Shown here one piece after another: positions 1 to 16,196 of a stretch of DNA of 64,000 bases. Under the pieces are notes generated by a model. That model was not told where the DNA came from. It worked only from the letters and a program-made list of their open reading frames with translations, and made no database searches. The position numbers and the translations under genes were made by a program. Source of the DNA: Candidatus Levyibacteriota bacterium (lineage in GTDB: Bacteria; Patescibacteriota; Microgenomatia; Levybacterales; UBA12049); contig JACROF010000004.1 of the NCBI GenBank assembly GCA_016214555.1, positions 276 to 64,275 of the forward strand, read 5' to 3'. Every line of letters begins with the position of its first letter. Position 1 is the stretch's first letter.

Positions 1-24
1 CATGATCTCGCCGCATTTACTGCA

Positions 25-558
25 TTGAGCTATGTTATGGTCACTACTCCTTTCAAAGAAATTACTCTTGCTACAGCAATTGTTGCGTTTACGGCAAATA
101 TGGTTGGAGGATTGGCTCCAGACCTTGATCAATCGACAGCAAGTCTTTGGCATAGAGTAAGAGGAGGAAGTATGTTGGGGAAAATTATAGCACCACTTTT
201 GGGAGGACATCGCTTTCTTTCTCATTCGTTAGTTGGCATTTTTATTGCAGGAATTTTAGCTCGTATGTTTTTACAAGTTGCTAGTTCTGTTCTTTATGTT
301 GACATTGATATCGTATGGTGGGCATTTATGATTGGGTTCATATCCCATCTTTTTATGGATCTATTTACTCATGATGGGATACCATTATTATTTCCTATTC
401 CACTAAAATTAGGAATTCCACCATTGAGTTTTTTGCGCATTAAAACAGGAGGTTTGGTTGAAAAATCTTTCGTATTTCCTGTTCTTCTTTTTATTACGAT
501 TTGCCTCTATTATTTTAATTATCATGATGTATTACATATACTGCGTAATTTATCCTAA
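25..558 (+). CDS. Membrane-bound metal-dependent hydrolase (YdjM/DUF457-like); may be 5'-truncated at the window edge
   Basis: Multi-TM protein with His-rich motifs (HRFLSHSLVG, HLFMDLFTHDG) typical of LexA-regulon YdjM-type hydrolases. The ORF starts at a TTG and the frame is open back to position 1. Confidence 0.4.
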   Translation: MSYVMVTTPFKEITLATAIVAFTANMVGGLAPDLDQSTASLWHRVRGGSMLGKIIAPLLGGHRFLSHSLVGIFIAGILARMFLQVASSVLYVDIDIVWWAFMIGFISHLFMDLFTHDGIPLLFPIPLKLGIPPLSFLRIKTGGLVEKSFVFPVLLFITICLYYFNYHDVLHILRNLS

Positions 559-577
559 GTCATAATACAATCATCAT

Positions 578-1762
578 ATGCTACAGACACTTAAAAACTA
601 TTACCACCTGATTCAGGGAGTTGTTGCTGTTTCATTTCGTATGAATCCAACTCGTGGAATGACAGTTATAGGTGTTACGGGTACCGATGGGAAGACGACA
701 ACTTCCAGCCTTATCTACCACATACTAACAAAGATAGGTTATAAAGTAGCACTTATTTCAACAATTGGTGCATATATTGATGGAAAAAAGTTAGATACAG
801 GTCTTCATGTATCGACCCCCAACAGTTTTCAACTTCAGAGATATATAACTTTAGCAAAAGAAAAAGGAGTAACTCATATCATACTTGAAGTGACATCTCA
901 CGCAATTGACCAACATAGAATTTATGGCATTCCATTTGACATTGGTGTAGTTACCAACATAACAAGAGAGCATCTGGATTATCACAAGTCAATGAAAAGA
1001 TATATGGAAACCAAAGCAAAGTTGTTACAAAAATCACGTGTCGCTATCCTTAATAAGGACGATGGTTCCTATATCTTCCTTAAGCAAAGGCTGGCAGGAC
1101 ATAGGATAATTACATACGGACTTGAAGATGCTGAAGTTACTCCAAAAAATCATCCATTCAAGCAAAAACATGTAGGGTTATTTCATACCTATAACTCACT
1201 TGCAGCGCTTTCAGTGTGTGATGAAATTGGTGTTGATCCTAAAGCAGCTGCAGAAGCGCTTGAAAGTTTTAATCTGCCCGAGGGGAGATCGGAAGTTGTT
1301 TATAGAAATGGATTCACCATTATAATCGATTTTGCTCACACACCTCAGGCCATTGAAAGCGTTCTTTCGGCAATTAATGCTCAAAAAAAAGGTGGGCGTC
1401 TAATTCATGTGTTTGGGTGCGCAGGTGAGCGAGACAAGGGCAAAAGACCTTTAATGGGATCAGCTTCAGCAAAGTATGCGGATTGCATTATTCTTACCTC
1501 AGAAGATCCAAGATCTGAAGATGCAAACGAAATAGCAAATGAGATTAGGAAAGGAGTTCCAGATGGGAAAGATGTTATTACAGAGATTGATCGGGGAAAA
1601 GCGATAGAAAAAGCAATTTCTAAAGCGAAAAAGGGTGATGTTATTATTGTTACTGGCAAAGGCCATGAGAAGTCCATAAACTTTGGTAAAGGTGAAATAG
1701 GTTGGAGTGAGCATAAAGCGGTTGAGAATGCCCTTTTATCACAAGGAATCGTAAAGAAATAA
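578..1762 (+). CDS. murE: Mur ligase, MurE-like (UDP-MurNAc-tripeptide synthetase), lacking the usual N-terminal domain 1
   Basis: P-loop GVTGTDGKTTT within 40 residues of the start. MurE hallmarks GCAGERDKGKRPLMG and TSEDPRSED. Only 394 aa, against about 490 for a typical MurE. Confidence 0.7.
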   Translation: MLQTLKNYYHLIQGVVAVSFRMNPTRGMTVIGVTGTDGKTTTSSLIYHILTKIGYKVALISTIGAYIDGKKLDTGLHVSTPNSFQLQRYITLAKEKGVTHIILEVTSHAIDQHRIYGIPFDIGVVTNITREHLDYHKSMKRYMETKAKLLQKSRVAILNKDDGSYIFLKQRLAGHRIITYGLEDAEVTPKNHPFKQKHVGLFHTYNSLAALSVCDEIGVDPKAAAEALESFNLPEGRSEVVYRNGFTIIIDFAHTPQAIESVLSAINAQKKGGRLIHVFGCAGERDKGKRPLMGSASAKYADCIILTSEDPRSEDANEIANEIRKGVPDGKDVITEIDRGKAIEKAISKAKKGDVIIVTGKGHEKSINFGKGEIGWSEHKAVENALLSQGIVKK

Positions 1763-3186
1763 TGAAAAAAGTACGATCAATTCATTTTGTTGGAATAAAA
1801 GGTGTTGGTCTGACGCCACTTGCAATCATTGCCAAACAGGCAGGGATTAGCGTGACGGGGAGTGATGTTAGTGAGGAATTTATTACAAGCAAAACACTTG
1901 AGGAGTGTGGTATCACTATCTACAATGGTTTTTCACCTGATCATGTATCGCCAACTATTGATCTTGTTATTACTACAGGAGCACATGACGGTTTGCAAAA
2001 TGTTGAGGTTCTTGAGGCAATAAAACAACGAATTCCTGTTATGACAAAAGGGCAAGCGGTTGGTGAGTTTATGAAAGGAGAGATCGTGGGGAGGTCGTTT
2101 TCAGGAATCGCTATCGCTGGATCTCATGGAAAGACTACTACAACTGCGATGCTTACAATGCTGTTGCAATCTAACGGATTGGATCCAACATACACAGTTG
2201 GAACTGGATCATTGGGTGATGGGATTCCTCCAGGACACCTTGGGAAAGGAAAATACTTCGTTGCAGAATCAGATGAATACGCAACAGATCCGCAAACCGA
2301 TCATAAGCCTCAATTTATGTGGCTAAAGCCTGAGATAATTGTTTTAACAAATATCGAACATGATCACCCCGATCTTTATCCTACGATCGAAGATGTAGAA
2401 ATGGCATTTTCTAATTTTAGTACAAATATAACACCAAACGGTTTTATTATTGGGAATGGTGATGATGCTCGAGTAGCAAAAATATTAGCAAGGCATATAG
2501 GGAAGGGGATCTCATTTGGGTTTTCAGAAAAAAATGATTACGTTTTGCACAGAATTCACACTTCGGGATCTCAAACTTTTTTTCATGTGCGTTCAAAAGG
2601 TACTGAGCTTGGAGAATTTAGATTATCTGTTGCAGGTCAACATAATGCCATGAATGCGTTAGCAGCAGCAATTGTTGGATTGGAAGTCGGGCTTTCTTTG
2701 GAAAAAGTAAAAAAGGGCCTTTCTGAATTTAAAGGATCAAAAAGAAGACTAGAATTTAAAGGCCAATTGATAACGGGCGCGTACGTTTTTGACGACTATG
2801 CTCATCATCCAACTGAAATTAAAGCTACACTTCGTGCGTTAAGGGATAGTTATCCAAAACACTCACTCGTTGCTATTTTTCAACCTCATACTTATTCGCG
2901 AACAAAGGCTTTTATAGAGGATTTTGTCACTTGTTTCGATGAGGCAGAAAGTGTCATGTTAGTTGATATTTTTTCTTCTGCAAGAGAGCAAAAAGACGAT
3001 ACAGTAAATTCAGAACTTCTAGCTAAAAAAATTTCATTGCGTCATCCTTCATCAATTTTTGTTCCCGACATGAACCTCCTTCCATCAATCCTTTCTCATC
3101 AAAGATTAAGAGACAATGTTGTGGTTGTAGTTATGGGAGCAGGTAATATATATAAAATAATTGATAACCTACCATTGGTTTCTTAG
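1762..3186 (+). CDS. murC: UDP-N-acetylmuramate--L-alanine ligase
   Basis: IHFVGIKGVGLTPLA...SGSD N-terminal Rossmann domain, IAIAGSHGKTTTTAM P-loop and DDYAHHPTEI motif. Start ATG overlaps the murE stop (TAATG). Confidence 0.9.
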   Translation: MKKVRSIHFVGIKGVGLTPLAIIAKQAGISVTGSDVSEEFITSKTLEECGITIYNGFSPDHVSPTIDLVITTGAHDGLQNVEVLEAIKQRIPVMTKGQAVGEFMKGEIVGRSFSGIAIAGSHGKTTTTAMLTMLLQSNGLDPTYTVGTGSLGDGIPPGHLGKGKYFVAESDEYATDPQTDHKPQFMWLKPEIIVLTNIEHDHPDLYPTIEDVEMAFSNFSTNITPNGFIIGNGDDARVAKILARHIGKGISFGFSEKNDYVLHRIHTSGSQTFFHVRSKGTELGEFRLSVAGQHNAMNALAAAIVGLEVGLSLEKVKKGLSEFKGSKRRLEFKGQLITGAYVFDDYAHHPTEIKATLRALRDSYPKHSLVAIFQPHTYSRTKAFIEDFVTCFDEAESVMLVDIFSSAREQKDDTVNSELLAKKISLRHPSSIFVPDMNLLPSILSHQRLRDNVVVVVMGAGNIYKIIDNLPLVS

Positions 3187-3222
3187 TTTTGAGATCAAAC
3201 AAAAATCAAGTATAATAAACGA

Positions 3223-4545
3223 ATGAAAAATTTTGTGATCACTGGTGGAAACAGACTTAATGGTACAACAATTATTTCAGGCGCAAAGAACGTTAGTTTA
3301 AAAGTGCTTGTTGCTGCTTGTCTTACCGATGAGGAAGTAATAATTCACAATATTCCCTTAATTTCTGATGTCATGGTAATGCTTGATATTATTCGAGAAT
3401 TGGGCGGTGAGGTACACCTAGAAGAGCATACTGTTAAGATCAAGATGGAGCATTTTGCAACTGACACTATTACTCTTGACAGGGCATCGCATATCAGAAC
3501 ATCATCAATGTTTTTGGCTCCTCTTCTTATCAGAAATCATAGTGCGATTATTCCAAATCCAGGAGGTTGTCGTATAGGAGCACGTCCAATTGACTGGACT
3601 ATAGAGGGGTTAAAGCTTATGGGAGCTGATATTGATTACGAAAGTCTTGACGGATATTTTCATGCTCGTGCAGAAAAGCTAGAGGGAATAACATACCGTT
3701 TTAAAAAAAATACCCACACAGGTACTGAGACATTAATACTTGCTAGTGTTTGTGCAAATGGAAAGACAATATTAGAGAATGCAGCATTAGAACCCGAAGT
3801 CGATGAGTTAATAACATTCCTCAATACGATGGGAGCATCAATTAAGCGAACAGGAGAGAGGACAATAGAAATTGAGGGAGTTGAAAAACTTCATAGCACC
3901 TCCTTTACTATATCAGCTGACCGAAATGAGATAGTTACTTTTGCAATTGCAGCCTATGTAACACAGGGGGATATTTTTGTTTCTGGTGCGAAAAGAAAAG
4001 ATATAGATATTTTCCTAGACAAACTTGATGAAGTTGGTGCTGCATACGAAGAAAAAGAAGATGGAATAAGGTTTTACCATACGGGGGGACTTAGGGCAAC
4101 TGATGTTATCACTGCACCTTATCCCGGATTCATGACAGATTGGCAAGCACCATGGGCAGTGTTGATGAGTGTCTGCAGTGGAAAGGCATCAATACATGAG
4201 GCAGTTTTTTCTAATAGATTTGGATATGTAAAAGAGTTGCGAAAAATGGGTGCAAAAATTTCGTTCTACCATCCGCATGTAGAAAATCCTTCAAATTTTT
4301 ATAATTTTGATGTGGATGTAAATGAAAAAAATCCTCATGCTATTTATATTGAGGGGCCAGTTAAGCTCCATGATGCTATTGTATCTATCTCAGATCTTCG
4401 TGCAGGTGCTTCGTTGGTGCTTGCAGCATTAGCAGCAACCGGAGAAACAGTGATCCATGGTGTAGAGTTGATTGACAGGGGTTATGAAGATTTTCAAGAG
4501 CGATTGTCACATCTTGGGGCAAGGATTAGGAGAGAAGATGAATAG
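3223..4545 (+). CDS. murA: UDP-N-acetylglucosamine 1-carboxyvinyltransferase
   Basis: ISGAKNVSLKVLVAACL, PGGCRIGARPID and the double EPSP-synthase fold layout. Full length, 440 aa. Confidence 0.9.
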   Translation: MKNFVITGGNRLNGTTIISGAKNVSLKVLVAACLTDEEVIIHNIPLISDVMVMLDIIRELGGEVHLEEHTVKIKMEHFATDTITLDRASHIRTSSMFLAPLLIRNHSAIIPNPGGCRIGARPIDWTIEGLKLMGADIDYESLDGYFHARAEKLEGITYRFKKNTHTGTETLILASVCANGKTILENAALEPEVDELITFLNTMGASIKRTGERTIEIEGVEKLHSTSFTISADRNEIVTFAIAAYVTQGDIFVSGAKRKDIDIFLDKLDEVGAAYEEKEDGIRFYHTGGLRATDVITAPYPGFMTDWQAPWAVLMSVCSGKASIHEAVFSNRFGYVKELRKMGAKISFYHPHVENPSNFYNFDVDVNEKNPHAIYIEGPVKLHDAIVSISDLRAGASLVLAALAATGETVIHGVELIDRGYEDFQERLSHLGARIRREDE

Positions 4546-5305
4546 TAATTATTCTGATCGAAAAATTGCGGCAATAATACTTGCTGCTGGAGAAGGAAAG
4601 CGAATGCGAAGCGAAACAGGTGAGAACAAAGTGATTTCATTATTGGCTAACAAGCCAATGATAGTTCACATTGTTGAATTTATGAGTAAAATTGCTATTG
4701 ATCAAATTATAGTCGTTGTTGGTCATGCTAAAGATTCGGTTAAAAAAGCCCTTCATGGATATAACGTTTCGTATGCTGTGCAAGTTGAGCAGCATGGAAC
4801 GGGTGATGCGGTGAAAGTTGCGCTTACATCTTTGTTGTCAGATATTACAGATGTGGTTGTTGTTTATGGAGATGATGCAGTATTGTATAGCAAGGAAAAT
4901 ACTATGCTGTTCTCAGATCTTATTAAAAGTCATATCAGTCATCAGACGGCTGTGACTTTTTTGACTATAGAGCAAGAGAATCCATTTGGACTTGGTAGAA
5001 TCTTAAGGGATAGGGAAAATCGTGTGGTAGGGATTGTGGAGGAGAAGGATGCGACAGAAGAGCAGAAGAGAATTACTGAAATTAATCCAGGAAGCTTTGT
5101 GTTTAGTGTTGATTTTCTCAAAAAGTATCTCCCTTTGATTCAAAAAAGTGAAGCCACTGGTGAATATTACTTAACAAGTCTTATTGATATTGCGCTAGAA
5201 AATGGAGAGAGAGTTGAGGCCATTAAAGGTGGAGCTATTCCTTGGAGAGGAGTAAATACACCTGAAGAGCTTGTCATGGCTGAAAAACTTATGTCAAAAG
5301 AATAG
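4538..5305 (+). CDS. GlmU-like sugar-1-phosphate nucleotidyltransferase domain only (no LbetaH acetyltransferase domain)
   Basis: ILAAGEGKRMRS and IVEEKDATEEQKRITEINPG align closely with the E. coli GlmU N-terminal domain (LAAGKGTRM..., [20 protein letters not shown]). An SD (AGGAGAG) sits 8 nt upstream of an ATG that overlaps the murA stop. The ORF ends after about 255 aa. Confidence 0.8.
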   Translation: MNSNYSDRKIAAIILAAGEGKRMRSETGENKVISLLANKPMIVHIVEFMSKIAIDQIIVVVGHAKDSVKKALHGYNVSYAVQVEQHGTGDAVKVALTSLLSDITDVVVVYGDDAVLYSKENTMLFSDLIKSHISHQTAVTFLTIEQENPFGLGRILRDRENRVVGIVEEKDATEEQKRITEINPGSFVFSVDFLKKYLPLIQKSEATGEYYLTSLIDIALENGERVEAIKGGAIPWRGVNTPEELVMAEKLMSKE

Positions 5306-5307
5306 AT

Positions 5308-5760
5308 ATGAATATAGTTATCCAAGAACTTAAAACATTTACTAAAGAAGAGGCTGATAGCATAAGAAAGTTAGCAAAGATGATTGGTCATAATTATAAA
5401 GAATTAACAGATGCTGATCTTTGGGAAATTGTTGATTCTCAAAATACATATCTATTTATAGCAAGAGAGATAGAAAGCAATAGTATTGTTGGAATGGCTT
5501 TGTTGCTTGTCTATCGCATCCCTTATGTTCGTAAAGCGTACCTTGATGACCTTGTGGTTGATGAAGAACATCGTGGTCGGGGGATAGGGTCACAGCTTCT
5601 TCAGAAAGTAGTCGACACTGCAAGAGAAAAGAAGGCCGCATATTTAGACTTCTCATCAAGGCCTCGACGAGAAGAGGGAAATAATTTGTATGAAAAATTT
5701 GGATTTGTAAAGCGAGATGCGAATGTTTATCGTCAGGTAATCGATTATGGAGAAGTCTAA
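5308..5760 (+). CDS. GNAT-family N-acetyltransferase
   Basis: Acetyl-CoA binding motif VDEEHRGRGIGSQLLQKVV, 150 aa. Confidence 0.7.
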   Translation: MNIVIQELKTFTKEEADSIRKLAKMIGHNYKELTDADLWEIVDSQNTYLFIAREIESNSIVGMALLLVYRIPYVRKAYLDDLVVDEEHRGRGIGSQLLQKVVDTAREKKAAYLDFSSRPRREEGNNLYEKFGFVKRDANVYRQVIDYGEV

Positions 5761-6406
5761 GAAAATTGTTTTTTTTGATATTGATTATACTCTTTTCGAT
5801 ACTGACGCTTACCGAAGAATTTTGTACCCAAGGCTCGCTCATGAACTAGGTATAGATGAGGAATTGCTTAAAATTTTCCGTCGAGAGTTTGAGCCTGAAA
5901 TGAAAAAAAAATTCGGTCATTTCAGTCCAACATTTTTTTTACAAAAAATATTACCTCTTGCTAAAAAAAATACTTCACTTGAGGCTTTAGAGCAGATCTT
6001 TTGGGATAAAGCAATATATGCTAGCGTACTAGATAGCAAAGGGAAAGAGCTTTTTGAGCAATTAACAAATAAAAATGTTACTATTGGTTTGTTATCAACT
6101 GGTGATACAAAACACCAACTGGCAAAAATAGACTCATTACTCACATTTCTTCCTAGTGATCATCACCATATCTTTTCAAATAAAATCGAATCTCTTGAAA
6201 CTGTACTTGAAAAATATCATGAATTTAAGATATATATAATTGATGATCTTCCTGAAGTTTTGCATGCAGTTAAGCAGTTAAATCCAAATGTCATAACGAT
6301 TTTTAAAAAAACAAACAAAGTTTTTGAATCAACAAATACAATTCAAAATTTTAATCCAGATTTTGAAATTGATGATTTAATGGAGATTTTGGAAATCGTT
6401 ATGTAA
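5747..6406 (+). CDS. HAD-superfamily hydrolase (phosphatase or phosphomutase fold)
   Basis: Motif I FFDIDYTLFD (DxDxT), motif II LLSTGD and motif IV IIDDLPE. Confidence 0.6.
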   Translation: MEKSKKIVFFDIDYTLFDTDAYRRILYPRLAHELGIDEELLKIFRREFEPEMKKKFGHFSPTFFLQKILPLAKKNTSLEALEQIFWDKAIYASVLDSKGKELFEQLTNKNVTIGLLSTGDTKHQLAKIDSLLTFLPSDHHHIFSNKIESLETVLEKYHEFKIYIIDDLPEVLHAVKQLNPNVITIFKKTNKVFESTNTIQNFNPDFEIDDLMEILEIVM

Positions 6407-6414
6407 TAAGTATT

Positions 6415-9225
6415 ATGTGTGGAATTTTTGGTTATGTTGGTAAAAAAAATACTGCCTCTTCACTTATTCTTTCTGGTCTCAAACTCCTTGAATATCGTGG
6501 TTATGATTCGTGGGGAATTGCTGTCGCATCTGAAAAAGGGATTGTAACTCAAAAGGAAATTGGAAAGATTGGTCATATAACCCTCAAAATGCCAAAAAGC
6601 AATATTGGTATTGGCCATACTCGTTGGGCGACTCATGGGGGGGTAACTAAGGCAAATGCTCATCCTCATCATGATTGCAACAATGAAATTGCAATTATTC
6701 ATAATGGGATTATTGAAAACTATCTTCAAATAAAAGAGAGTCTCTTAAAAAAGAATCACGTTTTTTTATCAGAGACTGATACGGAAGTAGTTCCTCACTT
6801 AATTGAAGAATACATTTCATCAGGAAAAAGTTTTGTAGAGGCATTTAGAAAAGCATGTCTTGAGTGTAGGGGCCTGAATGCAATTGTGGCTTTTAGTGCA
6901 AAAACAAATGAAATAATCGCTGCCAAAACAGGTTCTCCTCTTATCATAGGTTTTGGGGAAAATGAATATTTTATTGCCTCTGATGCATCTGGAATAGTTG
7001 GTCATACCAAGAAACTAATTTTTATGGAAGATGATCAGATGGTTTTGTTGAATGATGAAATTTTACTTTTTTCATTAAAAGATGGAAAGAAAAAAAATCT
7101 TTCCATTGAGGAGGTTGATTGGAAAATAGATGATGTTAAGAAGGGTCAGTATCCCCATTTTATGATAAAAGAAATAATAGAACAGTCTGCGATTATTCAA
7201 AATATTGCAACAACATATGATGATCAGATTAAAGACATGGCAAAACTTATTGACAAAGCTTTCGGAACCTTTTTAATTGGAGCAGGTACCGCATATTTTG
7301 CAACACTTGCAGGAACATATCTTTTTTCAAAAATTGCACATAAGCATGTTAATACAGCTCCTGCGTCTGAATTTAATTATCTTGAAGATTTTATTACAAA
7401 AAAAAGTCTCATTATTGCTCTGTCACAATCCGGTGAAACAATAGATGTTATTGAGCCACTGAATCGTGCAAGAGATAAAGGTAGTACAATTGCTTCTCTT
7501 GTCAATGTATTAGGATCATCAATTTATCGAATGTCTGATAGAAAGATTTTACTTGGGGTTGGTCCAGAAAAAGCTGTCGCCTCGACAAAGGCATATACTG
7601 CGAAATTAAGTATGCTTATCCTGTTATCATATGCGCTTGTCAATAATGTTAAAGAAGGAAAAAAAGAGTTGCTCCTTGCAGCTAAAGAAATTAAGAAAAT
7701 TATGGATAATAGATCAGCCCTTGATAGTCTTGCAGATAAGGTCAAAAATACGGACCATATTTACCTTGTTGGGAGAGGAAAATCTTATGCCACAGCTCTT
7801 GAAGGCGCATTAAAAATAAAAGAAGTTAGCTATATTCATGCAGAAGGCATGGCGGGCGGAGAATTAAAACATGGTCCAATAGCACTTATTACCAAGGGTA
7901 CTCCCTGCATTGTTATCGCACCTGATGATGAGACGTATGATGCGATTATCTCTAATGCAATGGAAATTAAGGCGCGAGGAGGGTATATTATTGGGATTGC
8001 TGCAAGAAAAGAATTGGTTTTTGATACATGGATTCCCGTAAAGGACTGTGGTAATGCTTCGGTTATTTCCCATGTTGTCCCATTGCAGTATCTAGCATAC
8101 GCTTTGGCTTTAGCTTTTATTGTTTGGTCGTTACGATCTACTTTTTATTGGGTAGATTTTTGGGATCAGCATGCATACCAGAACTTTTCTTTAACAAAAA
8201 TTACATACGCGTTATTTAGCTCAGTATTTTCTGCATCAAATATAGTTTCTTGGCTTACTGTTGTTCTTGTTCTTGTATTTCTTATTAACGATACCCATGC
8301 AATTTTTTCTGAGATAGCGATATCTATCTTGATGGTTGGAAAAACACTGTATGTCCTATTTAGCGAGAAGAAAAGGTTTTTTCCAACAAATTTTTATTTA
8401 TGGAAAAAAAGCGTAATGGTATTAATCAGTCTTTTTTTGATATCTCTCGCTTTTACTTTTCCACTCGCAGAGAGATTTGTTTGGATATTATTTATCGATC
8501 GAATTCTTTTTTTAATCGTACTCCTAGCATTGACAATTAGTTTTTTTCCAATAGAGATCTACTCAGATGTTAAAGTGACGAAAGCTGCATCGCACATAAC
8601 AAAAATTAAGCATTTATCTTCAATAATTTTTGTAGGCGATAACTCATCCGAAACTGTTTCATTGTCATTATCTCTTTTAAAAGATGATTTTAACGTATTA
8701 CCTCTTTATGCTTCGTCTCCTCAAAGGCCAGAAGTTTTTGATCAAATAACTTCACAGGTTAGTTTTAACACAGAGTTACTTTTACTTTCAGTGGATGATG
8801 CGCACATTGATAACCTTTTATTGTTAATGCAGGAATTACATCCATTATTTCTTTTTCTTCCGGTGGAATATGTAGGAAATGAAAAATATATGAGACGCCT
8901 TCATAGTGAGGTAGCAACTCGGAGTACAAAAATTATTCTTCATGGAAATGATTTTCTTGTCAAAAAAGTATTACATATAGCAAATTCTAGGAAAAATGTG
9001 TCAATCAAAACTGAAATTGTTGCAAAAGCAATTAAATTGCATAAGAGAAAGGATACAAACACAATAGACGTTATTTTAGGTTCAAGAACGATACAGCTAC
9101 CTATTAGTTTTGATGAAACATTTATCAATCAATCTTTTCTTCCCGCAATTTTTCTCTCTGATGAGATGGGTGTTTCTGACAAGAAGATAAAAACTTCTTT
9201 AAAATCCTATTTTCTTACAGATTGA
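6415..9225 (+). CDS. glmS: Glutamine--fructose-6-phosphate aminotransferase (GlmS) fused in frame to about 4 TM helices and a C-terminal soluble domain of about 235 aa
   Basis: MCGIFGY N-terminal nucleophile Cys, class II glutaminase and two SIS domains run up to ...VPLQYLAYALALAF. The frame then continues through a hydrophobic stretch and a soluble tail with no stop codon until 9225. Confidence 0.75.
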   Translation: MCGIFGYVGKKNTASSLILSGLKLLEYRGYDSWGIAVASEKGIVTQKEIGKIGHITLKMPKSNIGIGHTRWATHGGVTKANAHPHHDCNNEIAIIHNGIIENYLQIKESLLKKNHVFLSETDTEVVPHLIEEYISSGKSFVEAFRKACLECRGLNAIVAFSAKTNEIIAAKTGSPLIIGFGENEYFIASDASGIVGHTKKLIFMEDDQMVLLNDEILLFSLKDGKKKNLSIEEVDWKIDDVKKGQYPHFMIKEIIEQSAIIQNIATTYDDQIKDMAKLIDKAFGTFLIGAGTAYFATLAGTYLFSKIAHKHVNTAPASEFNYLEDFITKKSLIIALSQSGETIDVIEPLNRARDKGSTIASLVNVLGSSIYRMSDRKILLGVGPEKAVASTKAYTAKLSMLILLSYALVNNVKEGKKELLLAAKEIKKIMDNRSALDSLADKVKNTDHIYLVGRGKSYATALEGALKIKEVSYIHAEGMAGGELKHGPIALITKGTPCIVIAPDDETYDAIISNAMEIKARGGYIIGIAARKELVFDTWIPVKDCGNASVISHVVPLQYLAYALALAFIVWSLRSTFYWVDFWDQHAYQNFSLTKITYALFSSVFSASNIVSWLTVVLVLVFLINDTHAIFSEIAISILMVGKTLYVLFSEKKRFFPTNFYLWKKSVMVLISLFLISLAFTFPLAERFVWILFIDRILFLIVLLALTISFFPIEIYSDVKVTKAASHITKIKHLSSIIFVGDNSSETVSLSLSLLKDDFNVLPLYASSPQRPEVFDQITSQVSFNTELLLLSVDDAHIDNLLLLMQELHPLFLFLPVEYVGNEKYMRRLHSEVATRSTKIILHGNDFLVKKVLHIANSRKNVSIKTEIVAKAIKLHKRKDTNTIDVILGSRTIQLPISFDETFINQSFLPAIFLSDEMGVSDKKIKTSLKSYFLTD

Positions 9226-9269
9226 GACGTTGATTGATCTGTTGTAAAAGGGAGAGTATAATATCTTCT

Positions 9270-10283
9270 ATGGCATTCTTATTGGGGCTTACCATCATGT
9301 CTTTTTTCATTTCAATCATCCTTCTGATTCCATTTATCGATTTTTTGTATAGAGCTAAGCTTCGTCGGCAGCATCAAATAACAAAAGACATGTTTAATCA
9401 GCATACTCCAATGTTTGATAAATACCATAAGTGGAAAGTAGGGACACCAGTTGGGGGAGGGATATTGGTGATTGTGATTACGACAGTACTAACGTTATGG
9501 TCTTATGGGATTCTTTCCATTCCTGTAAAAGCTTGGGAGCTTTTTGTAATCTTTTTTTCATTTATTGGATTTGGAATCTTAGGTTTTTTTGATGATTGGA
9601 AGAAATTATCTAATTCAGGTAAAGAAAATGTATTTTTTGGAATTCGTTTTAGGCACAAATTCATTATTCAATGGGCTTTGGCTTTAGTAATTGCATCAGT
9701 GTTTTATTTTCAACTTGGGTATTCTTTTCTCTACATACATGGTATTGGGCTAGTGGGTGTTGGAGCATTTTTTATACCATTTGCCGCTTTCGTCATAGTT
9801 TCTTTTGTTAACGCAGTTAACATCGCTGATGGACTTGATGGTCTCGCATCTGGTTTGTTAGTAATTTGTTTGTTTGGCTTTTTAGCGATTAATTCGACAC
9901 AGATTGATAGATCACTTGGGGTATTTATTGCAGTGTTACTAGGTTCAGTTATGGCATTTTTGTATTTTAATATTTATAAAGCAAGGCTTTGGATTGGGGA
10001 TGTGGGAGCGCTTTCTCTTGGCGCAGCCCTTGCGGTTATCGGACTTCTCACCGGAAAAACTTTGACTCTTGCAGTAATTGGTGGTGTATTTATTATCGAA
10101 ATAGCATCATCACTTCTTCAGATACTCAGTAAAAAATATTTTAACAAGAAACTATTCCCCGCAGCACCTTTTCATCTCTATCTTCAGTTGAGAGGTTGGG
10201 AAGAGCCAAAAATAGTTATGAGAGCATGGCTTGTTGGAATATTTTTTGCAGTTCTTGGTGTATATCTTGCATTTCTTACCTGA
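9270..10283 (+). CDS. mraY: Phospho-N-acetylmuramoyl-pentapeptide transferase
   Basis: NAVNIADGLDGLASG signature and polytopic topology. ATG at 9270 is preferred over the upstream TTG because a GGGAGAG SD precedes it. Confidence 0.9.
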   Translation: MAFLLGLTIMSFFISIILLIPFIDFLYRAKLRRQHQITKDMFNQHTPMFDKYHKWKVGTPVGGGILVIVITTVLTLWSYGILSIPVKAWELFVIFFSFIGFGILGFFDDWKKLSNSGKENVFFGIRFRHKFIIQWALALVIASVFYFQLGYSFLYIHGIGLVGVGAFFIPFAAFVIVSFVNAVNIADGLDGLASGLLVICLFGFLAINSTQIDRSLGVFIAVLLGSVMAFLYFNIYKARLWIGDVGALSLGAALAVIGLLTGKTLTLAVIGGVFIIEIASSLLQILSKKYFNKKLFPAAPFHLYLQLRGWEEPKIVMRAWLVGIFFAVLGVYLAFLT

Positions 10284-10324
10284 CCTCCTCGCATCATCGC
10301 TTTTTTTGCTATAGAATAGAATGT

Positions 10325-11389
10325 ATGCGCAACATTGATCACGTTCTTCTTGCTGTAGTTGCATTTTTGACAATTTTTGGCCTTTTTATGATATACGATG
10401 CCTCATCTGTTATCGCATTTAGGGATTTTGGAGACAAATATCATTATATTAAGGAGCAGTGTATCAATGCAGTGTTAGGAATAATAGCATTAGGTTTTTT
10501 TACGTTTTTTGATTACAAAAAACTCTACAACCTATCAGTCCCCATCCTCTTGATAGCTATCGGAATGTTGATTGCTGTCTTTATTCCTGGAATTGGTATC
10601 TATGCATTAGGTGCCCATCGCTGGATTAATTTAGGAGTGACAGTTCTTCAGCCTGCTGAATTTGTGAAATTGAGTTTGGCTATCTATCTTTCAGCATGGT
10701 TTTCCACAAAAGAGAGAGGGAGACTTCCAGCATTTGGTCTTTTAATGGGATTTGTTCTTCTTCTTATCATGGCTCAACCTGATATGGGTACAGCGTCAAT
10801 AATAATGTTTGAAGCCGTTCTGCTATATTTTTTATCTGGTGCAACAATAGCGCATTTTTTGATGTTGATTCCTGTTTTGGGTATTGGTGGAGTAGTGCTT
10901 ATTCTTATTGCTCCATATCGACTCGCGAGGCTTACTTCCTTTCTTCATGCAGGAGATAATTTTGAAGGAACATCATATCACGTTAGGCAAATTTTGATAG
11001 CTCTTGGCTCAGGAGGACTTTTTGGAGTTGGAGCAGGAAATTCTCTCCAGAAATTTGCATATCTTCCAGAGAATGTTACTGACTCTATCTTTGCTATTAT
11101 TGCAGAAGAGTTCGGCTTTATTGGATCATTTGGACTCATTCTTTTATTTGTTATGATTATGTGGAGGGGATTTGTTATATCGGCTCGGTCAAAAGATACT
11201 TTTGGAAAATTATTATCAGCAGGAATAATTTGTTTTTTAGGTGTGCAAGCAGTTATTAATTTTGCAGCAATGACTGCACTTATTCCGTTGACAGGAGTGC
11301 CTTTGCCATTTATTTCCTATGGAGGATCAGCGCTTATTGTTGATCTTGCAGCTATTGGTATTGTATTAAATATCTCAAAACAACACTAA
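10325..11389 (+). CDS. ftsW: SEDS-family peptidoglycan glycosyltransferase, FtsW-like
   Basis: Polytopic protein ending ...GVPLPFISYGGSALIVDLAAIGIVLN. Its position between mraY and murG supports the call. ATG at 10325 is chosen to avoid a 90-nt out-of-frame overlap with mraY. Confidence 0.8.
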   Translation: MRNIDHVLLAVVAFLTIFGLFMIYDASSVIAFRDFGDKYHYIKEQCINAVLGIIALGFFTFFDYKKLYNLSVPILLIAIGMLIAVFIPGIGIYALGAHRWINLGVTVLQPAEFVKLSLAIYLSAWFSTKERGRLPAFGLLMGFVLLLIMAQPDMGTASIIMFEAVLLYFLSGATIAHFLMLIPVLGIGGVVLILIAPYRLARLTSFLHAGDNFEGTSYHVRQILIALGSGGLFGVGAGNSLQKFAYLPENVTDSIFAIIAEEFGFIGSFGLILLFVMIMWRGFVISARSKDTFGKLLSAGIICFLGVQAVINFAAMTALIPLTGVPLPFISYGGSALIVDLAAIGIVLNISKQH

Positions 11390-11391
11390 AT

Positions 11392-12510
11392 ATGAAAATT
11401 GTTATAGTAGGTGGTCATTTATCTCCAGCTCTTGCAATTATAGACGCCCTTCCTGAGGGGGTGGATGTCCGATTTATTGGTCGAAAAACGGCAGTTGAGG
11501 GTGACCAGTCAACATCTTTGGAGTATCGTGAAATTACCTCTAGAAACATCTCCTTTTTCCCCTTAACAACAGCCAGGGTACAAAGATCATTAAGTAGGCA
11601 TACCTTCCCGTCTATTATAAGGTTGCCGATAGGGATGTATCAGGCAGTAGAATATCTTCGAAGAGAAAAACCTGACGTTGTACTATCATTTGGAGGATAT
11701 CTTTCGGTGCCAGTTGGATTTGCTGCAAAGATACTTGGTATTCCGCTTGTAATTCATGAGCAAACTTTTCATGTCGGCTTAGCCAATAAAGTATTATCAT
11801 CGTTTGCTTCCAGAATCTGTATATCTTGGGAATCATCAAAAAAATACTTTCCTCAAAGCAAGACTGTACTTACGGGTAATCCTATGCGAAAATTTGAAAT
11901 GAAAAATTTTCCCTATGTTTTCTCAACAAGTGATGAGAAGTTACCTCTTGTTTACATTACTGGAGGAAGTACTGGATCTCATGTAATAAATGTACTTGTT
12001 GAGGAATCAATCAAAGATCTTCTTACTAGTTCGCGAGTTATTCATCAAACAGGCGACACAAAAGAATTTGGAGATTATGATAAGCTAAATAATTTCCGAA
12101 AAAATCTTACTGAAAAAGAAAAAGGAAGATACATTATTGAGAAATTTATTAAACCCGATACAACAGGGATAATAATGAAAAATGCCGATCTAGTTGTAAG
12201 TAGAGCTGGAATGAACACAATAACAGAGTTGTTATATTTTGAGACACCAGCGCTCCTTATTCCTCTTCAAACAGGTCAGAAAAATGAACAGATTCTTAAT
12301 GCGAAGTTTTTTGCATCACTTGACGTGGGTGAGAATTTATTTCAAAAAGGATCAAGTGGTAAGAATTTTTATATGCTCTTAACAAGAATGTTATCTGAGC
12401 TTAGTAGGTATCAAAAAGGATTTGAAAAAGCTCATAAGCTTATCATTGAAGATGCAGCAAAGCAGGTTATTGCGCAGATGTTCTATGTGGTCAAGAAAAA
12501 GACTTCTTAA
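11392..12510 (+). CDS. murG: UDP-GlcNAc:lipid I GlcNAc transferase
   Basis: MKIVIVGGHLSPALAI N-terminus and GT28 two-domain layout. Confidence 0.9.
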   Translation: MKIVIVGGHLSPALAIIDALPEGVDVRFIGRKTAVEGDQSTSLEYREITSRNISFFPLTTARVQRSLSRHTFPSIIRLPIGMYQAVEYLRREKPDVVLSFGGYLSVPVGFAAKILGIPLVIHEQTFHVGLANKVLSSFASRICISWESSKKYFPQSKTVLTGNPMRKFEMKNFPYVFSTSDEKLPLVYITGGSTGSHVINVLVEESIKDLLTSSRVIHQTGDTKEFGDYDKLNNFRKNLTEKEKGRYIIEKFIKPDTTGIIMKNADLVVSRAGMNTITELLYFETPALLIPLQTGQKNEQILNAKFFASLDVGENLFQKGSSGKNFYMLLTRMLSELSRYQKGFEKAHKLIIEDAAKQVIAQMFYVVKKKTS

Positions 12511-14223: not shown

Positions 14224-14275
14224 TATTCCACTGTCCCTTGCAAATAGTAGTATCTTCTGCTAGGATTTACCCACG

Positions 14276-15451: not shown

Positions 15452-15464
15452 AAAGTACCTGCCC

Positions 15465-16097: not shown

Positions 16098-16196
16098 TTT
16101 TTATTAGATCGTAGAATCTTTGAAATGCGACGCATGAGGATAAATTCACTCTAAAACTCATCAAGAGTAAGTCAGTAGATATGTTATACTTTTCGC

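What the first reader, a model, noticed from the sequence alone, without database searches (positions are those of the whole stretch)
4538..6406. UDP-GlcNAc block with a GlmU nucleotidyltransferase domain alone, flanked by a GNAT and a HAD enzyme
What the sequence shows. The GlmU homolog ends after the uridyltransferase domain, about 255 aa, and has no left-handed beta-helix acetyltransferase domain. It is followed directly, in a 2-nt intergenic gap, by a GNAT acetyltransferase. After that come a HAD-fold hydrolase and then glmS.

Established background. In bacteria GlcN-1-P acetylation is carried out by the LbetaH domain of GlmU. In eukaryotes a GNAT enzyme (GNA1) acetylates GlcN-6-P, and the pyrophosphorylase is a separate enzyme.

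Inference. The arrangement looks like a eukaryote-style split. The GNAT may replace the missing acetyltransferase domain, and the HAD enzyme could be a phosphosugar mutase or phosphatase in the same route.
Basis: partly seen in the sequence, partly recalled or inferred. Interest (0 to 1): 0.6.

Follow-up and report, generated by a model that had tools for sequence, protein, structure and literature searches.

The report
GNAT replaces GlmU's acetyltransferase half
In this candidate-phylum (Levybacteria) bacterium the enzyme that makes the cell-wall sugar UDP-GlcNAc has lost its acetyltransferase half, and an unrelated GNAT acetyltransferase gene sits exactly where relatives keep that half, next to a conserved HAD enzyme that may supply the pathway's missing mutase step.

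Summary
The window holds an N-domain-only GlmU (4538-5305, 255 aa), a GNAT after a 2-nt gap (5308-5760), a HAD enzyme (5747-6406) and glmS (from 6415), inside a murC-murA…mraY-ftsW-murG operon of a Candidatus Levybacteria genome.

I collected 107 related loci, some redundant. The gene just upstream of the HAD gene is this GNAT in 52. In 48 it is a GlmU-C-type LβH acetyltransferase, either fused to GlmU-N or encoded as a separate gene. The two never occur together. The GNAT therefore looks like an in-situ, non-orthologous replacement of the missing acetyltransferase domain.

The "eukaryote-style" GlcN-6-P order is not specifically supported. The GNAT is not a clear GNA1 member, and replacing a GlcN-1-P enzyme in place favours the bacterial order. 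Neither order is proven.

The HAD enzyme accompanies both acetyltransferase types. In some relatives it is fused to GlmU or to the GNAT, and all four catalytic motifs are intact. It may be the missing GlcN-6-P/GlcN-1-P mutase, but a phosphatase or pyrophosphatase role is not excluded.

I could not test whether glmM or an LβH gene lies elsewhere in the genome. Monofunctional GlmU is already known; I found no description of the GNAT replacement or the HAD partner.

The parts
1762..3186 (+). murC (UDP-MurNAc--L-Ala ligase), an upstream member of the same co-directional gene row
   Evidence: ORF. It lies in the conserved position murC-murA-glmU_N in the related loci.
3223..4545 (+). murA (UDP-GlcNAc enolpyruvyl transferase), the first consumer of UDP-GlcNAc
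   Evidence: ORF. EPSP_synthase family in the orthologous loci. It overlaps the glmU_N start by 8 nt. The best promoter-like match in 1-16500 (11/12) lies at 3189-3216, but the total count of such matches is no higher than in shuffles.
4538..5305 (+). glmU_N: stand-alone GlcNAc-1-P uridylyltransferase domain of GlmU (255 aa), with no LβH domain
   Evidence: NCBIfam GlmU models match profile positions 2-238 of about 450, E 6e-61, below the full-length cut-offs; Pfam finds NTP_transferase only. The alignment to the solved GlmU 5vmk keeps LAAGxGxRM, xKV, QxGTGxA, YGD, GxGR, ExKDAT, EINxG, GEYYLT and GVN. All 120 best homologs are 240-275 aa with no Hexapep.
5308..5760 (+). GNAT N-acetyltransferase (150 aa), proposed replacement of the GlmU C-terminal acetyltransferase
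   Evidence: Pfam Acetyltransf_1, 59.6 bits. The AF2 model has pLDDT 89.5 and a GNAT fold. Family alignment A1 has the invariant residues R70, K76, D81, R89, G92, Y112, R121, N125, Y128 and R142. The gene sits in the slot that relatives fill with an LβH gene, and it never occurs together with LβH.
5747..6406 (+). HAD-superfamily phosphotransferase (219 aa, with a C1 cap): candidate phosphoglucosamine mutase, or a phosphatase
   Evidence: Invariant D11xD13xT15, S117/G119, K146 and D166-D167. The AF2 model has pLDDT 95.3 and shows a Rossmann-like core plus a helical cap. Foldseek gives generic HAD-IA hits. Orthologs lie directly after the acetyltransferase gene in 100 of 107 loci, and some are fused to GlmU or to the GNAT.
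6415..8112 (+). glmS portion (GlmS residues 1-566) of the 936-aa fusion ORF; the last ~19 residues of GlmS are missing
   Evidence: NF001484 gives 604 bits, aligning residues 1-566 to profile positions 1-582 of 601. No tail is present in any frame. The relatives L007 and L008 end ...DKPRNLAKSVTVK. About 108 nt are deleted relative to L007.
8113..9225 (+). membrane-spanning, degenerate MurF-like portion of the fusion ORF
   Evidence: 40% identical to the separate 378-aa gene of L007 and 23% identical to the 397-aa Mur_ligase_M proteins of L001/L003. The P-loop GSxGKS is replaced by GDNSSE.
9234..10283 (+). mraY, the next gene of the operon
   Evidence: ORF. Glycos_transf_4 family in the orthologous loci. 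65-95% identical across loci.

Best explanation
The block is a UDP-GlcNAc supply module built into the cell-wall/division operon murC-murA-glmU_N-GNAT-HAD-glmS-(murF-like)-mraY-ftsW-murG of a Candidatus Levybacteria (Patescibacteria/CPR) genome.

Shown:
- GlmU here is only the uridylyltransferase domain, with its catalytic motifs intact.
- The GNAT is a conserved, lineage-specific family.
- Relatives carry a GlmU-C-type LβH acetyltransferase at the same position, fused to GlmU_N or as its own gene, and never together with the GNAT.
- The HAD enzyme follows the acetyltransferase gene in both versions and is sometimes fused to GlmU or to the GNAT.

Inferred:
- glmU first split into two genes, and the LβH gene was then replaced in place by a GNAT. 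The GNAT now performs the amino-sugar-phosphate N-acetylation.
- The most parsimonious reaction is GlcN-1-P + acetyl-CoA -> GlcNAc-1-P, which GlmU_N uridylylates and MurA then uses. GlcN-6-P as the acceptor is not excluded.
- The operon encodes every step from fructose-6-P to UDP-GlcNAc except the 6-P/1-P mutase, and the HAD enzyme is its only unassigned catalyst. It lies between glmS and the acetyltransferase in reverse pathway order. I therefore propose it is an aspartyl-phosphate-based phosphoglucosamine mutase.

My confidence is about 0.75 for the GNAT role and about 0.35 for the HAD-as-mutase step.
For: 1. N-only GlmU. Searches show domain coverage of 2-238 of about 450 and no Hexapep. 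One search shows the active-site motifs aligned to the solved GlmU. In one search the 120 best homologs are all 240-275 aa. In one search most of the 150 best cluster representatives are 240-260 aa.

2. Synteny. Searches give called genes with Pfam domains. Searches show 19 GTDB species representatives with murA-glmU_N-GNAT-HAD.

3. Positional replacement.
- In L033 the order is murA, glmU_N (256 aa), LβH (213 aa), short HAD.
- That LβH protein matches the acetyltransferase half of archaeal-type GlmU (TIGR03992 positions 216-390, E 3e-46) and S. tokodaii ST0452 (2ggo, E 4e-23).
- The HAD-anchored scan and its classification give 52 loci with the GNAT and 48 with LβH directly upstream of the HAD gene.
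- Of the 48 LβH loci, 20 are fused to GlmU_N, 14 are split, and in 14 no GlmU_N was detected.
- No locus has both types (57 GNAT loci, 645 kb; 50 LβH loci, 327 kb).
- In the NJ tree of GlmU_N, the split-LβH forms are basal to and interspersed among the GNAT forms, apart from the fused full-length clade.

4. Functional coupling.
- glmS follows the HAD gene in 30 of 52 GNAT loci.
- Three species carry GNAT-HAD-glmS-yvcK away from the dcw cluster, with YvcK/GlmR (TIGR01826) at 305-330 bits against a cut-off of 196.
- Fusions: P0213 = GlmU_N+HAD+GNAT; L092, L109 and L113 = NTP-transferase+LβH+HAD; L079 = GNAT+HAD.

5. GNAT chemistry.
- Y128 aligns with the catalytic Tyr127 of C. parvum GNA1, and R142 with its essential Arg141.
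- S116 aligns with Thr117, and R75/K76 with Arg73/Lys74 (alignment; residue roles from PMC7587441).
- Further invariant or near-invariant basic residues (R70, R118, R121, R136) fit an anionic acceptor.

6. HAD chemistry. All four motifs are invariant and the model is confident.
Against: - No biochemical data exist for any of the three proteins.
- Whole genomes could not be searched, so a glmM, an LβH acetyltransferase or an anomeric kinase may lie elsewhere. I looked only at the 64-kb window and about 1 Mb of related loci.
- The GNAT has no specific family assignment. Its best NCBIfam hits (RimI, ArsN1, AAC(6')) are all far below their cut-offs, and its best PDB matches are generic GNATs.
- Three GNAT loci lack the HAD gene at the site: L015 and L024, both from contigs over 1 Mb, and L021. 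The HAD gene is therefore either relocated or dispensable.
- Orthologous HADs come with and without the cap domain. Known HAD mutases need a cap, so the capless forms argue for a phosphatase.
- Fold hits to β-phosphoglucomutase are poor (TM 0.46-0.51), while HAD phosphatases such as NANP and YfnB fit better.
- The P0213 and L079 fusions are each known from one short contig.
- The NJ tree is a quick distance tree without support values.
Confidence: 0.7

Rival explanations
1. Eukaryote-style order. The GNAT is a GNA1-like GlcN-6-P N-acetyltransferase. The HAD enzyme, or another mutase, then converts GlcNAc-6-P to GlcNAc-1-P for GlmU_N.
For: - GNA1 structures are among the best fold matches by TM-score and rmsd: C. 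parvum GNA1 6yug (TM 0.77/0.80, rmsd 2.4), T. brucei 3fb3 and yeast 1i1d.
- The family profile aligns with 6yug over almost its full length (E 1.3e-9).
- The catalytic Tyr and the Arg141 equivalent are invariant.
- The tight GNAT-HAD-glmS linkage, even away from glmU_N (L019, L020, L022), places the GNAT next to the enzyme that makes GlcN-6-P.
Against: - Non-GNA1 GNATs score as well or better: 3pp9, 1z4e and polyamine acetyltransferases, NatC and HPA2.
- The C. parvum GNA1 GlcN6P-binding residues Arg113, His81 and Glu119 are not conserved; they align with Y112, D81 and R118.
- The GNAT replaces a GlcN-1-P-specific LβH enzyme in an otherwise identical operon, and close relatives alternate between the two. 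Changing the substrate would also require the mutase to change substrate.
Confidence: 0.25
2. Salvage or auxotrophy, as in Capnocytophaga canimorsus. The monofunctional GlmU uses GlcNAc-1-P derived from scavenged GlcNAc. The HAD enzyme is a sugar-phosphate phosphatase, for example acting on GlcNAc-6-P as MupP acts on MurNAc-6-P, and works with an anomeric kinase. Alternatively it is a pyrophosphatase or nucleotidase that pulls the uridylyltransferase or MraY reaction.
For: - Monofunctional GlmU with GlcNAc auxotrophy is documented in Bacteroidetes (PMC4358021).
- A relative carries a GlmU_N fused to an APH-type kinase (P0191), which suggests an anomeric-kinase route exists in related lineages.
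- MupP is a HAD phosphatase acting before AmgK and MurU (PMC5371407).
- Capless HAD orthologs and better fold matches to phosphatases such as NANP and YfnB/YjjG favour hydrolysis over mutase chemistry.
- 16 GNAT loci have no glmS at the site.
Against: - A scavenger of GlcNAc needs no N-acetyltransferase, yet the GNAT or an LβH gene is directly upstream of the HAD gene in 100 of 107 loci.
- glmS and the GlmS regulator YvcK are linked to GNAT-HAD, which indicates de novo synthesis.
- With a canonical GlcN-1-P-specific LβH GlmU, which has the same HAD partner, a GlcNAc-6-P phosphatase has no obvious role.
- No APH kinase is found in about 0.5 Mb of these loci apart from L032 itself.
Confidence: 0.25
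3. The GNAT is unrelated to amino-sugar synthesis, for example a RimI-like protein acetyltransferase or a small-molecule or antibiotic acetyltransferase that happens to be co-transcribed. The real GlcN-1-P acetyltransferase is encoded elsewhere.
For: The best NCBIfam hits are RimI, ArsN1 and AAC(6'). JGI annotates homologs as 'RimI-like'. Whole genomes were not searched.
Against: - All those hits are far below their cut-offs (33 vs 86 bits, 32 vs 170, 30 vs 140).
- The family is confined to this operon position in this lineage.
- It is mutually exclusive with LβH at the same slot in 107 loci.
- It overlaps the HAD gene by 14 nt, and a GNAT domain is fused to GlmU_N-HAD in P0213.
Confidence: 0.07

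Closest known systems
Bifunctional bacterial GlmU (E. coli / S. pneumoniae type; TIGR01173)
   Same: The N-terminal uridylyltransferase domain is clearly homologous (E 9e-61) and keeps the catalytic and GlcNAc-binding motifs. It has the same place in the pathway, feeding MurA.
   Different: The protein ends in the linker helix and has no LβH acetyltransferase or trimerisation domain. It scores 206 bits against the 366.85 cut-off.
Archaeal-type GlmU / Sulfolobus tokodaii ST0452 (TIGR03992; PDB 2ggo), and its split form in CPR relatives
   Same: Relatives of this operon carry an ST0452-like LβH acetyltransferase between the uridylyltransferase and the HAD gene, exactly where the window has the GNAT.
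   Different: The window gene has a different fold (GNAT, not LβH) and shows no sequence relationship to it.
GNA1, glucosamine-6-phosphate N-acetyltransferase (eukaryotic and the independent apicomplexan family; PDB 1i1d, 2huz, 6yug)
   Same: GNAT fold, similar size and the same catalytic Tyr position. An invariant Arg matches CpGNA1 Arg141, and a Ser/Thr matches Thr117. Both make a stand-alone acetylation step upstream of a separate uridylyltransferase.
   Different: There is no specific sequence membership, because other GNATs score as well or better. Several GlcN6P-binding residues are not shared. The context suggests replacement of a GlcN-1-P enzyme.
Monofunctional GlcNAc-1-P uridylyltransferase GlmU_Cc of Capnocytophaga canimorsus and other Bacteroidetes (PMC4358021); N-only GlmU noted in NagU-bearing bacteria (bioRxiv 10.64898/2026.06.23.733835)
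   Same: A uridylyltransferase without the acetyltransferase domain. The 2026 preprint explicitly postulates 'an unidentified acetyltransferase' for N-only GlmU species.
   Different: In Capnocytophaga the loss means GlcNAc auxotrophy. Here glmS, a GNAT and a HAD enzyme are co-encoded, which points to de novo synthesis with a substitute acetyltransferase.
MupP-AmgK-MurU peptidoglycan-sugar salvage (Pseudomonas; PMC5371407)
   Same: A HAD-family enzyme acts on an N-acetyl-amino-sugar phosphate upstream of an LβH-less uridylyltransferase that feeds peptidoglycan synthesis.
   Different: No AmgK-type kinase is seen in the loci. The uridylyltransferase here is GlmU-type, not MurU. murA is present, so UDP-MurNAc is made de novo.
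HAD-superfamily phosphomutases (β-phosphoglucomutase; eukaryotic phosphomannomutase)
   Same: The DxDxT nucleophile and general acid/base motif, and a C1 helical cap in the window protein.
   Different: Scores are far below the family cut-offs (TIGR02009 17 vs 153 bits; TIGR01990 14 vs 189), and the structural superposition is poor (TM 0.46-0.51). Many orthologs lack the cap altogether.

Membership tests
Bifunctional GlmU (TIGR01173 / NF010934) | N-terminal GlcNAc-1-P uridylyltransferase domain with the LxxGxGxRM signature and sugar-binding motifs | tested here: met
   Profile positions 2-238 matched at E 6e-61 to 9e-61. The motifs align with the solved GlmU 5vmk.
Bifunctional GlmU (TIGR01173 / NF010934) | C-terminal left-handed β-helix GlcN-1-P acetyltransferase domain | tested here: not met
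   The protein ends at residue 255. There are no Hexapep or Hexapep_GlmU hits. The next ORF is a GNAT.
Bifunctional GlmU (TIGR01173 / NF010934) | Whole-protein score above the curated cut-off | tested here: not met
   206.1 bits against a cut-off of 366.85; 206.2 against 450.
GNAT superfamily (PF00583) | Acetyl-CoA-binding R/Q-x-x-G-x-G/A motif and the GNAT fold | tested here: met
   59.6 bits against a cut-off of 20.7. R89-G-R-G92-I-G94 is conserved. The AF2 model has pLDDT 89.5, and 890 PDB GNAT matches have E<=0.001.
GNA1 (glucosamine-6-phosphate N-acetyltransferase, EC 2.3.1.4) | Specific sequence or profile relationship to GNA1 families, closer than to other GNATs | tested here: not met
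   With a single sequence, human GNA1 scores E 0.02-0.03 and T. brucei GNA1 7.7e-4, behind SSAT and 1vkc. With the profile, 6yug scores 1.3e-9, 3fb3 7.4e-8 and 4ag7 1.8e-5, but 3pp9, 1z4e and 8a9o score better.
GNA1 (glucosamine-6-phosphate N-acetyltransferase, EC 2.3.1.4) | Catalytic Tyr and the phosphate-contacting Arg near the C-terminus (CpGNA1 Tyr127, Arg141) | tested here: met
   Y128 and R142 are invariant and align with Tyr127 and Arg141. Residue roles come from PMC7587441.
GNA1 (glucosamine-6-phosphate N-acetyltransferase, EC 2.3.1.4) | Remaining GlcN6P-binding residues (CpGNA1 Arg73, His81, Arg113, Thr117, Glu119) | tested here: inconclusive
   Arg73 aligns with R75 and Thr117 with S116/T, so these two are shared. 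His81, Arg113 and Glu119 align with D81, Y112 and R118, so these three are not.
GNA1 (glucosamine-6-phosphate N-acetyltransferase, EC 2.3.1.4) | Acetylation of GlcN-6-P (not GlcN-1-P) in vitro | not testable with these tools
   This needs an enzyme assay.
HAD superfamily (PF00702 / PF13419) | Four catalytic motifs (DxDxT, S/T, K, DD) on a Rossmann-like core | tested here: met
   D11, D13, T15, S117, G119, K146, D166 and D167 are invariant or nearly invariant in 25 sequences. The AF2 model has pLDDT 95.3. Pfam scores are just below gathering for the window protein (22.0 vs 26.4) and above for the relatives L007 and L008 (28.0 and 28.8 vs 23.8).
HAD phosphomutases (β-PGM family TIGR02009 / TIGR01990) | Family-level score; cap-borne distal phosphate site | tested here: not met
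   17.4 bits against a cut-off of 153; 14.2 against 189. TM to β-PGM is 0.46-0.51. Many orthologs lack the cap.
GlmM (α-D-phosphohexomutase phosphoglucosamine mutase) | PGM_PMM domains with the phosphoserine loop [ST]ASHNP | tested here: not met
   No such motif occurs in any frame of the window or of about 490 kb of related loci. Whole genomes were not searchable.
GlmS (TIGR01135) | Glutaminase plus two SIS domains, above the cut-off | tested here: met
   583.8 bits against a cut-off of 418.
GlmS (TIGR01135) | Conserved C-terminal tail (...PRNLAKSVTV[EK]) that closes the isomerase site | tested here: not met
   The alignment stops at profile position 588 of 607. No tail is present in any frame. 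The tail is present in L007 and L008. There is a ~108-nt deletion.

The most novel reading that the evidence does not exclude
The HAD enzyme is a new, non-homologous phosphoglucosamine mutase: a HAD-superfamily analog of GlmM, working even in capless form and possibly inside a GlmU/acetyltransferase/HAD complex. Together with the GNAT it gives these CPR bacteria a UDP-GlcNAc pathway in which two of the four canonical bacterial activities are carried out by unrelated folds.
Probability: 0.3. Interest if true: 0.85.

Novelty: new variant of a known kind. Interest (0 to 1): 0.68.

Why it matters
Bifunctional GlmU is widely treated as universal and essential in bacteria and is pursued as an antibiotic target. 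Monofunctional GlmU has been read as a sign of GlcNAc auxotrophy (Capnocytophaga, PMC4358021). A 2026 preprint (10.64898/2026.06.23.733835) states that N-only GlmU species must have an unidentified acetyltransferase.

This locus offers a concrete, testable candidate for that enzyme, supported by a natural experiment: the same operon slot is filled by LβH or by GNAT in otherwise matching operons.

It also flags a HAD enzyme that is repeatedly linked and fused to GlmU as a possible substitute for GlmM. If that holds, metabolic reconstructions of Patescibacteria that score UDP-GlcNAc or peptidoglycan synthesis as incomplete would need revision. The three small proteins are also easy to express and assay.

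Tried and rejected
- Frameshift check on GlmS. I looked for the missing tail in the other frames and found none. The cause is a ~108-nt deletion that fuses two genes.
- GNA1 membership by sequence, profile and fold. It is compatible but not specific, so I did not file the GNAT as a GNA1.
- Specific HAD subfamily by NCBIfam, Pfam, PDB sequence and Foldseek. Only generic HAD-IA similarity emerged. The best structural match, 2p11, has no known function.
- Search for glmM-type phosphoserine motifs, LβH repeats and APH kinases in the window and all fetched loci. None were found near the operon, apart from MraY false positives for the repeat pattern. This says nothing about the rest of the genomes.
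- Whole-genome search. The tools return at most ±10 kb around a match and the collection scans are capped, so the >1-Mb Levybacteria contigs (OZ246394.1, CAZDOJ010000001.1, ERZ28653421 scaffold_5) could not be searched.
- Literature searches for GlmU or GlmM in CPR/Patescibacteria found nothing relevant.
- The promoter/terminator scan found no more sites than in shuffled sequence, so I use it only for context.
- Pfam scan of ten unassigned window ORFs. No mutase, LβH or sugar kinase was found.

Full report
**What is in the window.**

Positions 1-16000 carry one co-directional cell-wall/division gene row:

| Gene | Coordinates |
|---|---|
| YdjM-like gene | 25-558 |
| short Mur ligase | 578-1762 |
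| murC | 1762-3186 |
| murA | 3223-4545 |
| glmU homolog | 4538-5305 |
| GNAT | 5308-5760 |
| HAD enzyme | 5747-6406 |
| 936-aa ORF beginning with glmS | 6415-9225 |
| mraY, ftsW, murG, ftsQ-like gene, ftsA, ftsZ | downstream |

The GNAT, HAD and GlmU-N proteins are identical to NCBI proteins annotated from a Candidatus Levybacteria MAG, recorded on contigs of 81,107 nt (GNAT, HAD) and 71,647 nt (GlmU-N). The organism is therefore a member of the Patescibacteria/CPR.

- The 255-aa GlmU homolog matches eleven NCBIfam GlmU equivalog models, but only over their first ~238 of ~450 positions (E down to 6e-61). Its scores are below every full-length cut-off.
- Pfam sees only nucleotidyl-transferase domains and no hexapeptide repeats.
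- Against solved GlmU structures the match is again confined to the N-terminal domain. The motifs LAAGxGxRM, xKV, QxGTGxA, YGD, GxGR, ExKDAT, EINxG, GEYYLT and GVN are all kept, so it should be an active uridylyltransferase.
- The ATG at 4538 has an AGGAGAG ribosome-binding site just upstream.
- The GNAT follows after 2 nt. The HAD gene overlaps the GNAT by 14 nt. glmS follows after 8 nt.

**The short GlmU is a family trait, not a truncation.**

All 120 best homologs among 5.8 billion proteins are 240-275 aa and lack Hexapep. In an exhaustive phmmer search of 1.84 billion cluster representatives, most of the best 150 are 240-260 aa and about 13 are canonical 457-487-aa GlmUs. The rest include fusions.

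**The gene order is conserved.**

- Gene calls around GNAT homologs on long contigs show murA, glmU_N (252-257 aa), GNAT (150-153 aa), then a 160-230-aa ORF, then optionally glmS and a murF-like gene, then mraY.
- The 160-168-aa "no-Pfam" ORF is the same HAD enzyme without its cap domain. It has the same N-terminal KKIxLFDIDxTLF motif and the same C-terminal core.
- A scan of one genome per GTDB species found the GNAT family in 19 species-level genomes. They are Levybacteria-like by gene content, although many NCBI titles say otherwise.
- tblastn of the window proteins against those loci shows glmU_N next to the GNAT in most of them and the HAD gene after the GNAT in most of them.
- The exceptions are L015, L024 and L021, which have no HAD gene at the site, and L019, L020 and L022, where GNAT-HAD-glmS lies away from the dcw cluster.
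- In those last three loci the next gene is YvcK/GlmR. It matches TIGR01826, named "UDP-GlcNAc-binding protein YvcK", at 305-330 bits against a cut-off of 196. From my own knowledge, this protein regulates GlmS in Bacillus.

**The key comparison.**

A 45%-identical N-only GlmU (P0187) sits on a contig ordered murA, glmU_N, a 213-aa LβH protein, then a 156-aa HAD that is 45-52% identical to the Levybacteria short HADs.

That LβH protein matches the acetyltransferase half of archaeal-type GlmU (TIGR03992 positions 216-390, E 3e-46). It also matches the C-terminal domain of Sulfolobus tokodaii ST0452 (PDB 2ggo, E 4e-23), including an HLNYIGDS motif.

I therefore used the HAD family as an anchor and scanned JGI metagenome contigs. 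This found 160 relatives, of which 80 loci were kept. I classified the neighbours by tblastn and ORF structure. Over all 107 HAD-bearing loci, some of them redundant:

| Gene directly upstream of HAD | Loci | Relation to GlmU_N |
|---|---|---|
| this GNAT | 52 | separate N-only ORF in all 43 loci where GlmU_N was seen; not seen in 9 |
| GlmU-C-type LβH | 48 | same ORF in 20 (full-length GlmU), separate gene in 14, GlmU_N not detected in 14 |
| none found or contig cut | 7 | - |

- No locus has both types: 57 loci (645 kb) have the GNAT, 50 loci (327 kb) have LβH, and none has both.
- The flanks are otherwise the same: murC-murA upstream, and HAD-glmS(-yvcK)…mraY downstream.
- A neighbour-joining tree of the GlmU_N domains separates a clade of fused full-length GlmUs from a clade of N-only proteins. 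In the N-only clade the split-LβH form is basal (L033), and other split-LβH forms (L083, L059, L101, L091/95/96) are scattered among the GNAT forms. This tree has no support values.

The simplest history is fission of glmU, followed by replacement of the LβH gene by a GNAT in place, possibly more than once.

**What the GNAT is.**

- It forms a tight family (47-76% identity to the window protein) with the invariant residues R70, K76, D81, R89, G92, Y112, R121, N125, Y128 and R142.
- It has no specific assignment. RimI, ArsN1 and AAC(6') models hit at 30-33 bits against cut-offs of 86-170.
- Its closest PDB sequences are generic GNATs.
- The AlphaFold model (pLDDT 89.5) matches hundreds of GNATs. 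GNA1 structures are among the best by TM-score and rmsd (6yug 0.77/0.80 at 2.4 Å; 3fb3; 1i1d) but do not stand out.
- In the profile alignment to C. parvum GNA1, using the residue roles described in PMC7587441, Y128 matches the catalytic Tyr127 and R142 the essential Arg141. S116 matches Thr117, and R75/K76 match Arg73/Lys74.
- His81, Arg113 and Glu119 are not conserved.

The many invariant basic residues fit a phosphorylated acceptor. They do not tell a 1-phosphate from a 6-phosphate. Because the GNAT takes the place of a GlcN-1-P acetyltransferase in an unchanged operon, I consider GlcN-1-P the more parsimonious acceptor.

**What the HAD enzyme is.**

- All four HAD motifs are invariant (D11xD13xT15, S117/G119, K146, D166-D167), and Q124 and K127 are also invariant.
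- The model (pLDDT 95.3) has a Rossmann-like core and a helical C1 cap at about residues 19-108.
- Many orthologs lack the cap cleanly, and both forms occur with both acetyltransferase types.
- Family and fold searches give only generic HAD-IA similarity. The best match is 2p11 (function unknown, TM 0.77), followed by PH1655, the Neu5Ac-9-P phosphatase NANP and YfnB. β-phosphoglucomutases superpose poorly.
- Its link to UDP-GlcNAc synthesis is strong. It is adjacent to the acetyltransferase gene in 100 of 107 loci.
- It occurs in single ORFs of 579-595 aa combining an NTP-transferase, LβH and HAD (L092, L109, L113).
- It also occurs in a 387-aa GNAT+HAD ORF (L079).
- A 626-aa protein, P0213, combines GlmU_N with a HAD of this family (hhalign probability 98.7%, E 1.7e-16). 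It ends in a C-terminal GNAT domain (Acetyltransf_1 24.1 bits against a cut-off of 20.7).
- P0213 and L079 each rest on a single contig.

The operon encodes GlmS, an acetyltransferase, the uridylyltransferase and MurA, and the only step without a gene is the 6-P/1-P mutase. The HAD gene lies between glmS and the acetyltransferase, so the operon reads in reverse pathway order. That makes a HAD-type phosphoglucosamine mutase an attractive hypothesis.

Several points count against it. Many orthologs are capless, fold matches to phosphatases are better, and the gene is absent from the site in three genomes. The MupP-AmgK-MurU route is a precedent in which a HAD phosphatase plus an anomeric kinase replaces a mutase (PMC5371407). 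One relative has GlmU_N fused to an APH-type kinase (P0191).

**What is known and what is new.**

- Monofunctional GlcNAc-1-P uridylyltransferases are known. In Capnocytophaga canimorsus, loss of GlmM and the acetyltransferase makes the bacterium a GlcNAc auxotroph, and 30 of 45 Bacteroidetes genera have such an enzyme (PMC4358021).
- A June 2026 preprint notes N-only GlmU in some NagU-bearing bacteria and infers "an unidentified acetyltransferase".
- My literature searches found nothing on GlmU or GlmM in CPR bacteria, on a GNAT taking the place of GlmU-C, or on a HAD partner of GlmU.

I therefore rate this a new variant of a known pathway. It would have a categorically new element if the HAD enzyme proves to be a mutase.

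**Limits.**

- Nothing here is biochemical.
- I could not search whole genomes for glmM, a stand-alone LβH gene or an anomeric kinase. Motif and tblastn searches covered only the window and about 1 Mb of related loci.
- The tree is a quick distance tree.
- Many loci are metagenome fragments and some are redundant.

**Side observation on glmS in this window.**

Relatives encode a 585-587-aa GlmS ending ...DKPRNLAKSVTVK, followed by a separate membrane/MurF-like gene. The window lacks about 108 nt spanning the end of glmS, the spacer and the start of the next gene. The result is one 936-aa ORF whose GlmS part lacks the C-terminal tail. Either this genome's GlmS is impaired, or this is an assembly artefact.

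Noticed in passing
window 6415-9225 (junction near 8100-8115): glmS is fused in frame to the downstream membrane/MurF-like gene by a ~108-nt deletion relative to L007. The deletion removes the GlmS C-terminal tail (...DKPRNLAKSVTVK), the spacer and the first ~11 codons of the next gene. The ends of the deleted stretch resemble each other (TATGCACTTGC / TACGCTTTGGC). It could be a real deletion or an assembly collapse.
   Followed up: partly
window 8113-9225; L001 8936-10129; L007 12878-14014; L030 9667-11259: The gene between glmS/HAD and mraY is a MurF-like Mur ligase whose N-terminus is replaced by several transmembrane helices. It ranges from intact (L030: 530 aa, Mur_ligase_M+C), through M-domain only (L001/L003: 397 aa, GSxGKS P-loop), to unrecognisable by Pfam (the L007 378-aa and L008 520-aa genes). 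In the window the P-loop is lost (IFVGDNSSET).
   Followed up: partly
window 3186-3223 versus L001 5153-5815, L003 5247-5909, L030 3689-4681: Several relatives have a murB gene or murB fragment (FAD_binding_4, 220-330 aa) between murC and murA. The window and its closest relative L007 have none there. In L001/L003 the MurB-like ORF is only 220 aa, without MurB_C.
   Followed up: no
P0198, P0219, P0222, P0228, P0257, P0266, P0276 (representative proteins): N-only GlmU domains are repeatedly fused to Mur ligases, in both orders and at 482-758 aa. This ties the short uridylyltransferase to peptidoglycan precursor synthesis in other lineages.
   Followed up: partly
P0191 / L032 938-2662: A 574-aa protein fuses GlmU_N to an APH-family kinase domain (PF01636, E 1e-23) and is followed by a MazG-like gene. 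It may be an anomeric GlcNAc kinase plus uridylyltransferase salvage enzyme.
   Followed up: partly
L019 12939-13949, L020 12896-13933, L022 5218-6216; also L060, L083, L086, L088, L106: A YvcK/GlmR homolog (UDP-GlcNAc-binding GlmS regulator family) lies directly after glmS or the HAD gene in several relatives. No copy was found in the 64-kb window.
   Followed up: partly
A2 alignment; window 5807-6050 (HAD residues ~21-100): The cap domain of the HAD enzyme is present in some orthologs (215-230 aa) and cleanly absent in others (156-168 aa). Both forms occur with GNAT-type and with LβH-type neighbours.
   Followed up: partly
window ~17200-61750: About 45 kb is dominated by large polytopic membrane proteins with no obvious family (many 490-870 aa). 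Interspersed are glycosyltransferases, C-methyltransferase-like genes (42390-43619, 49545-50792), a cupin (49012-49548), a Gfo/Idh/MocA oxidoreductase (50833-51777) and a flippase-like gene (51798-53039). It looks like a very large surface-glycan synthesis region.
   Followed up: no
window 23504-24646: A 380-aa acidic protein with no Pfam match sits between the membrane-protein genes.
   Followed up: no
loci L009, L010, L012, L015-L017, L021, L023-L025 (record titles): Many NCBI records carrying this Levybacteria-type operon are titled 'uncultured Gammaproteobacteria bacterium'. Others are titled Methylomirabilota, Sulfotelmatobacter, Limnocylindrales or Acidiferrales. The titles do not fit the gene content and look like mislabelled or contaminated MAG records.
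   Followed up: no
window 16197-17042: A class IV aminotransferase (D-amino-acid/branched-chain type; PF01063, E 6e-40) lies just after ftsZ and a small membrane protein. It could supply D-Glu or D-Ala for the peptide stem.
   Followed up: no
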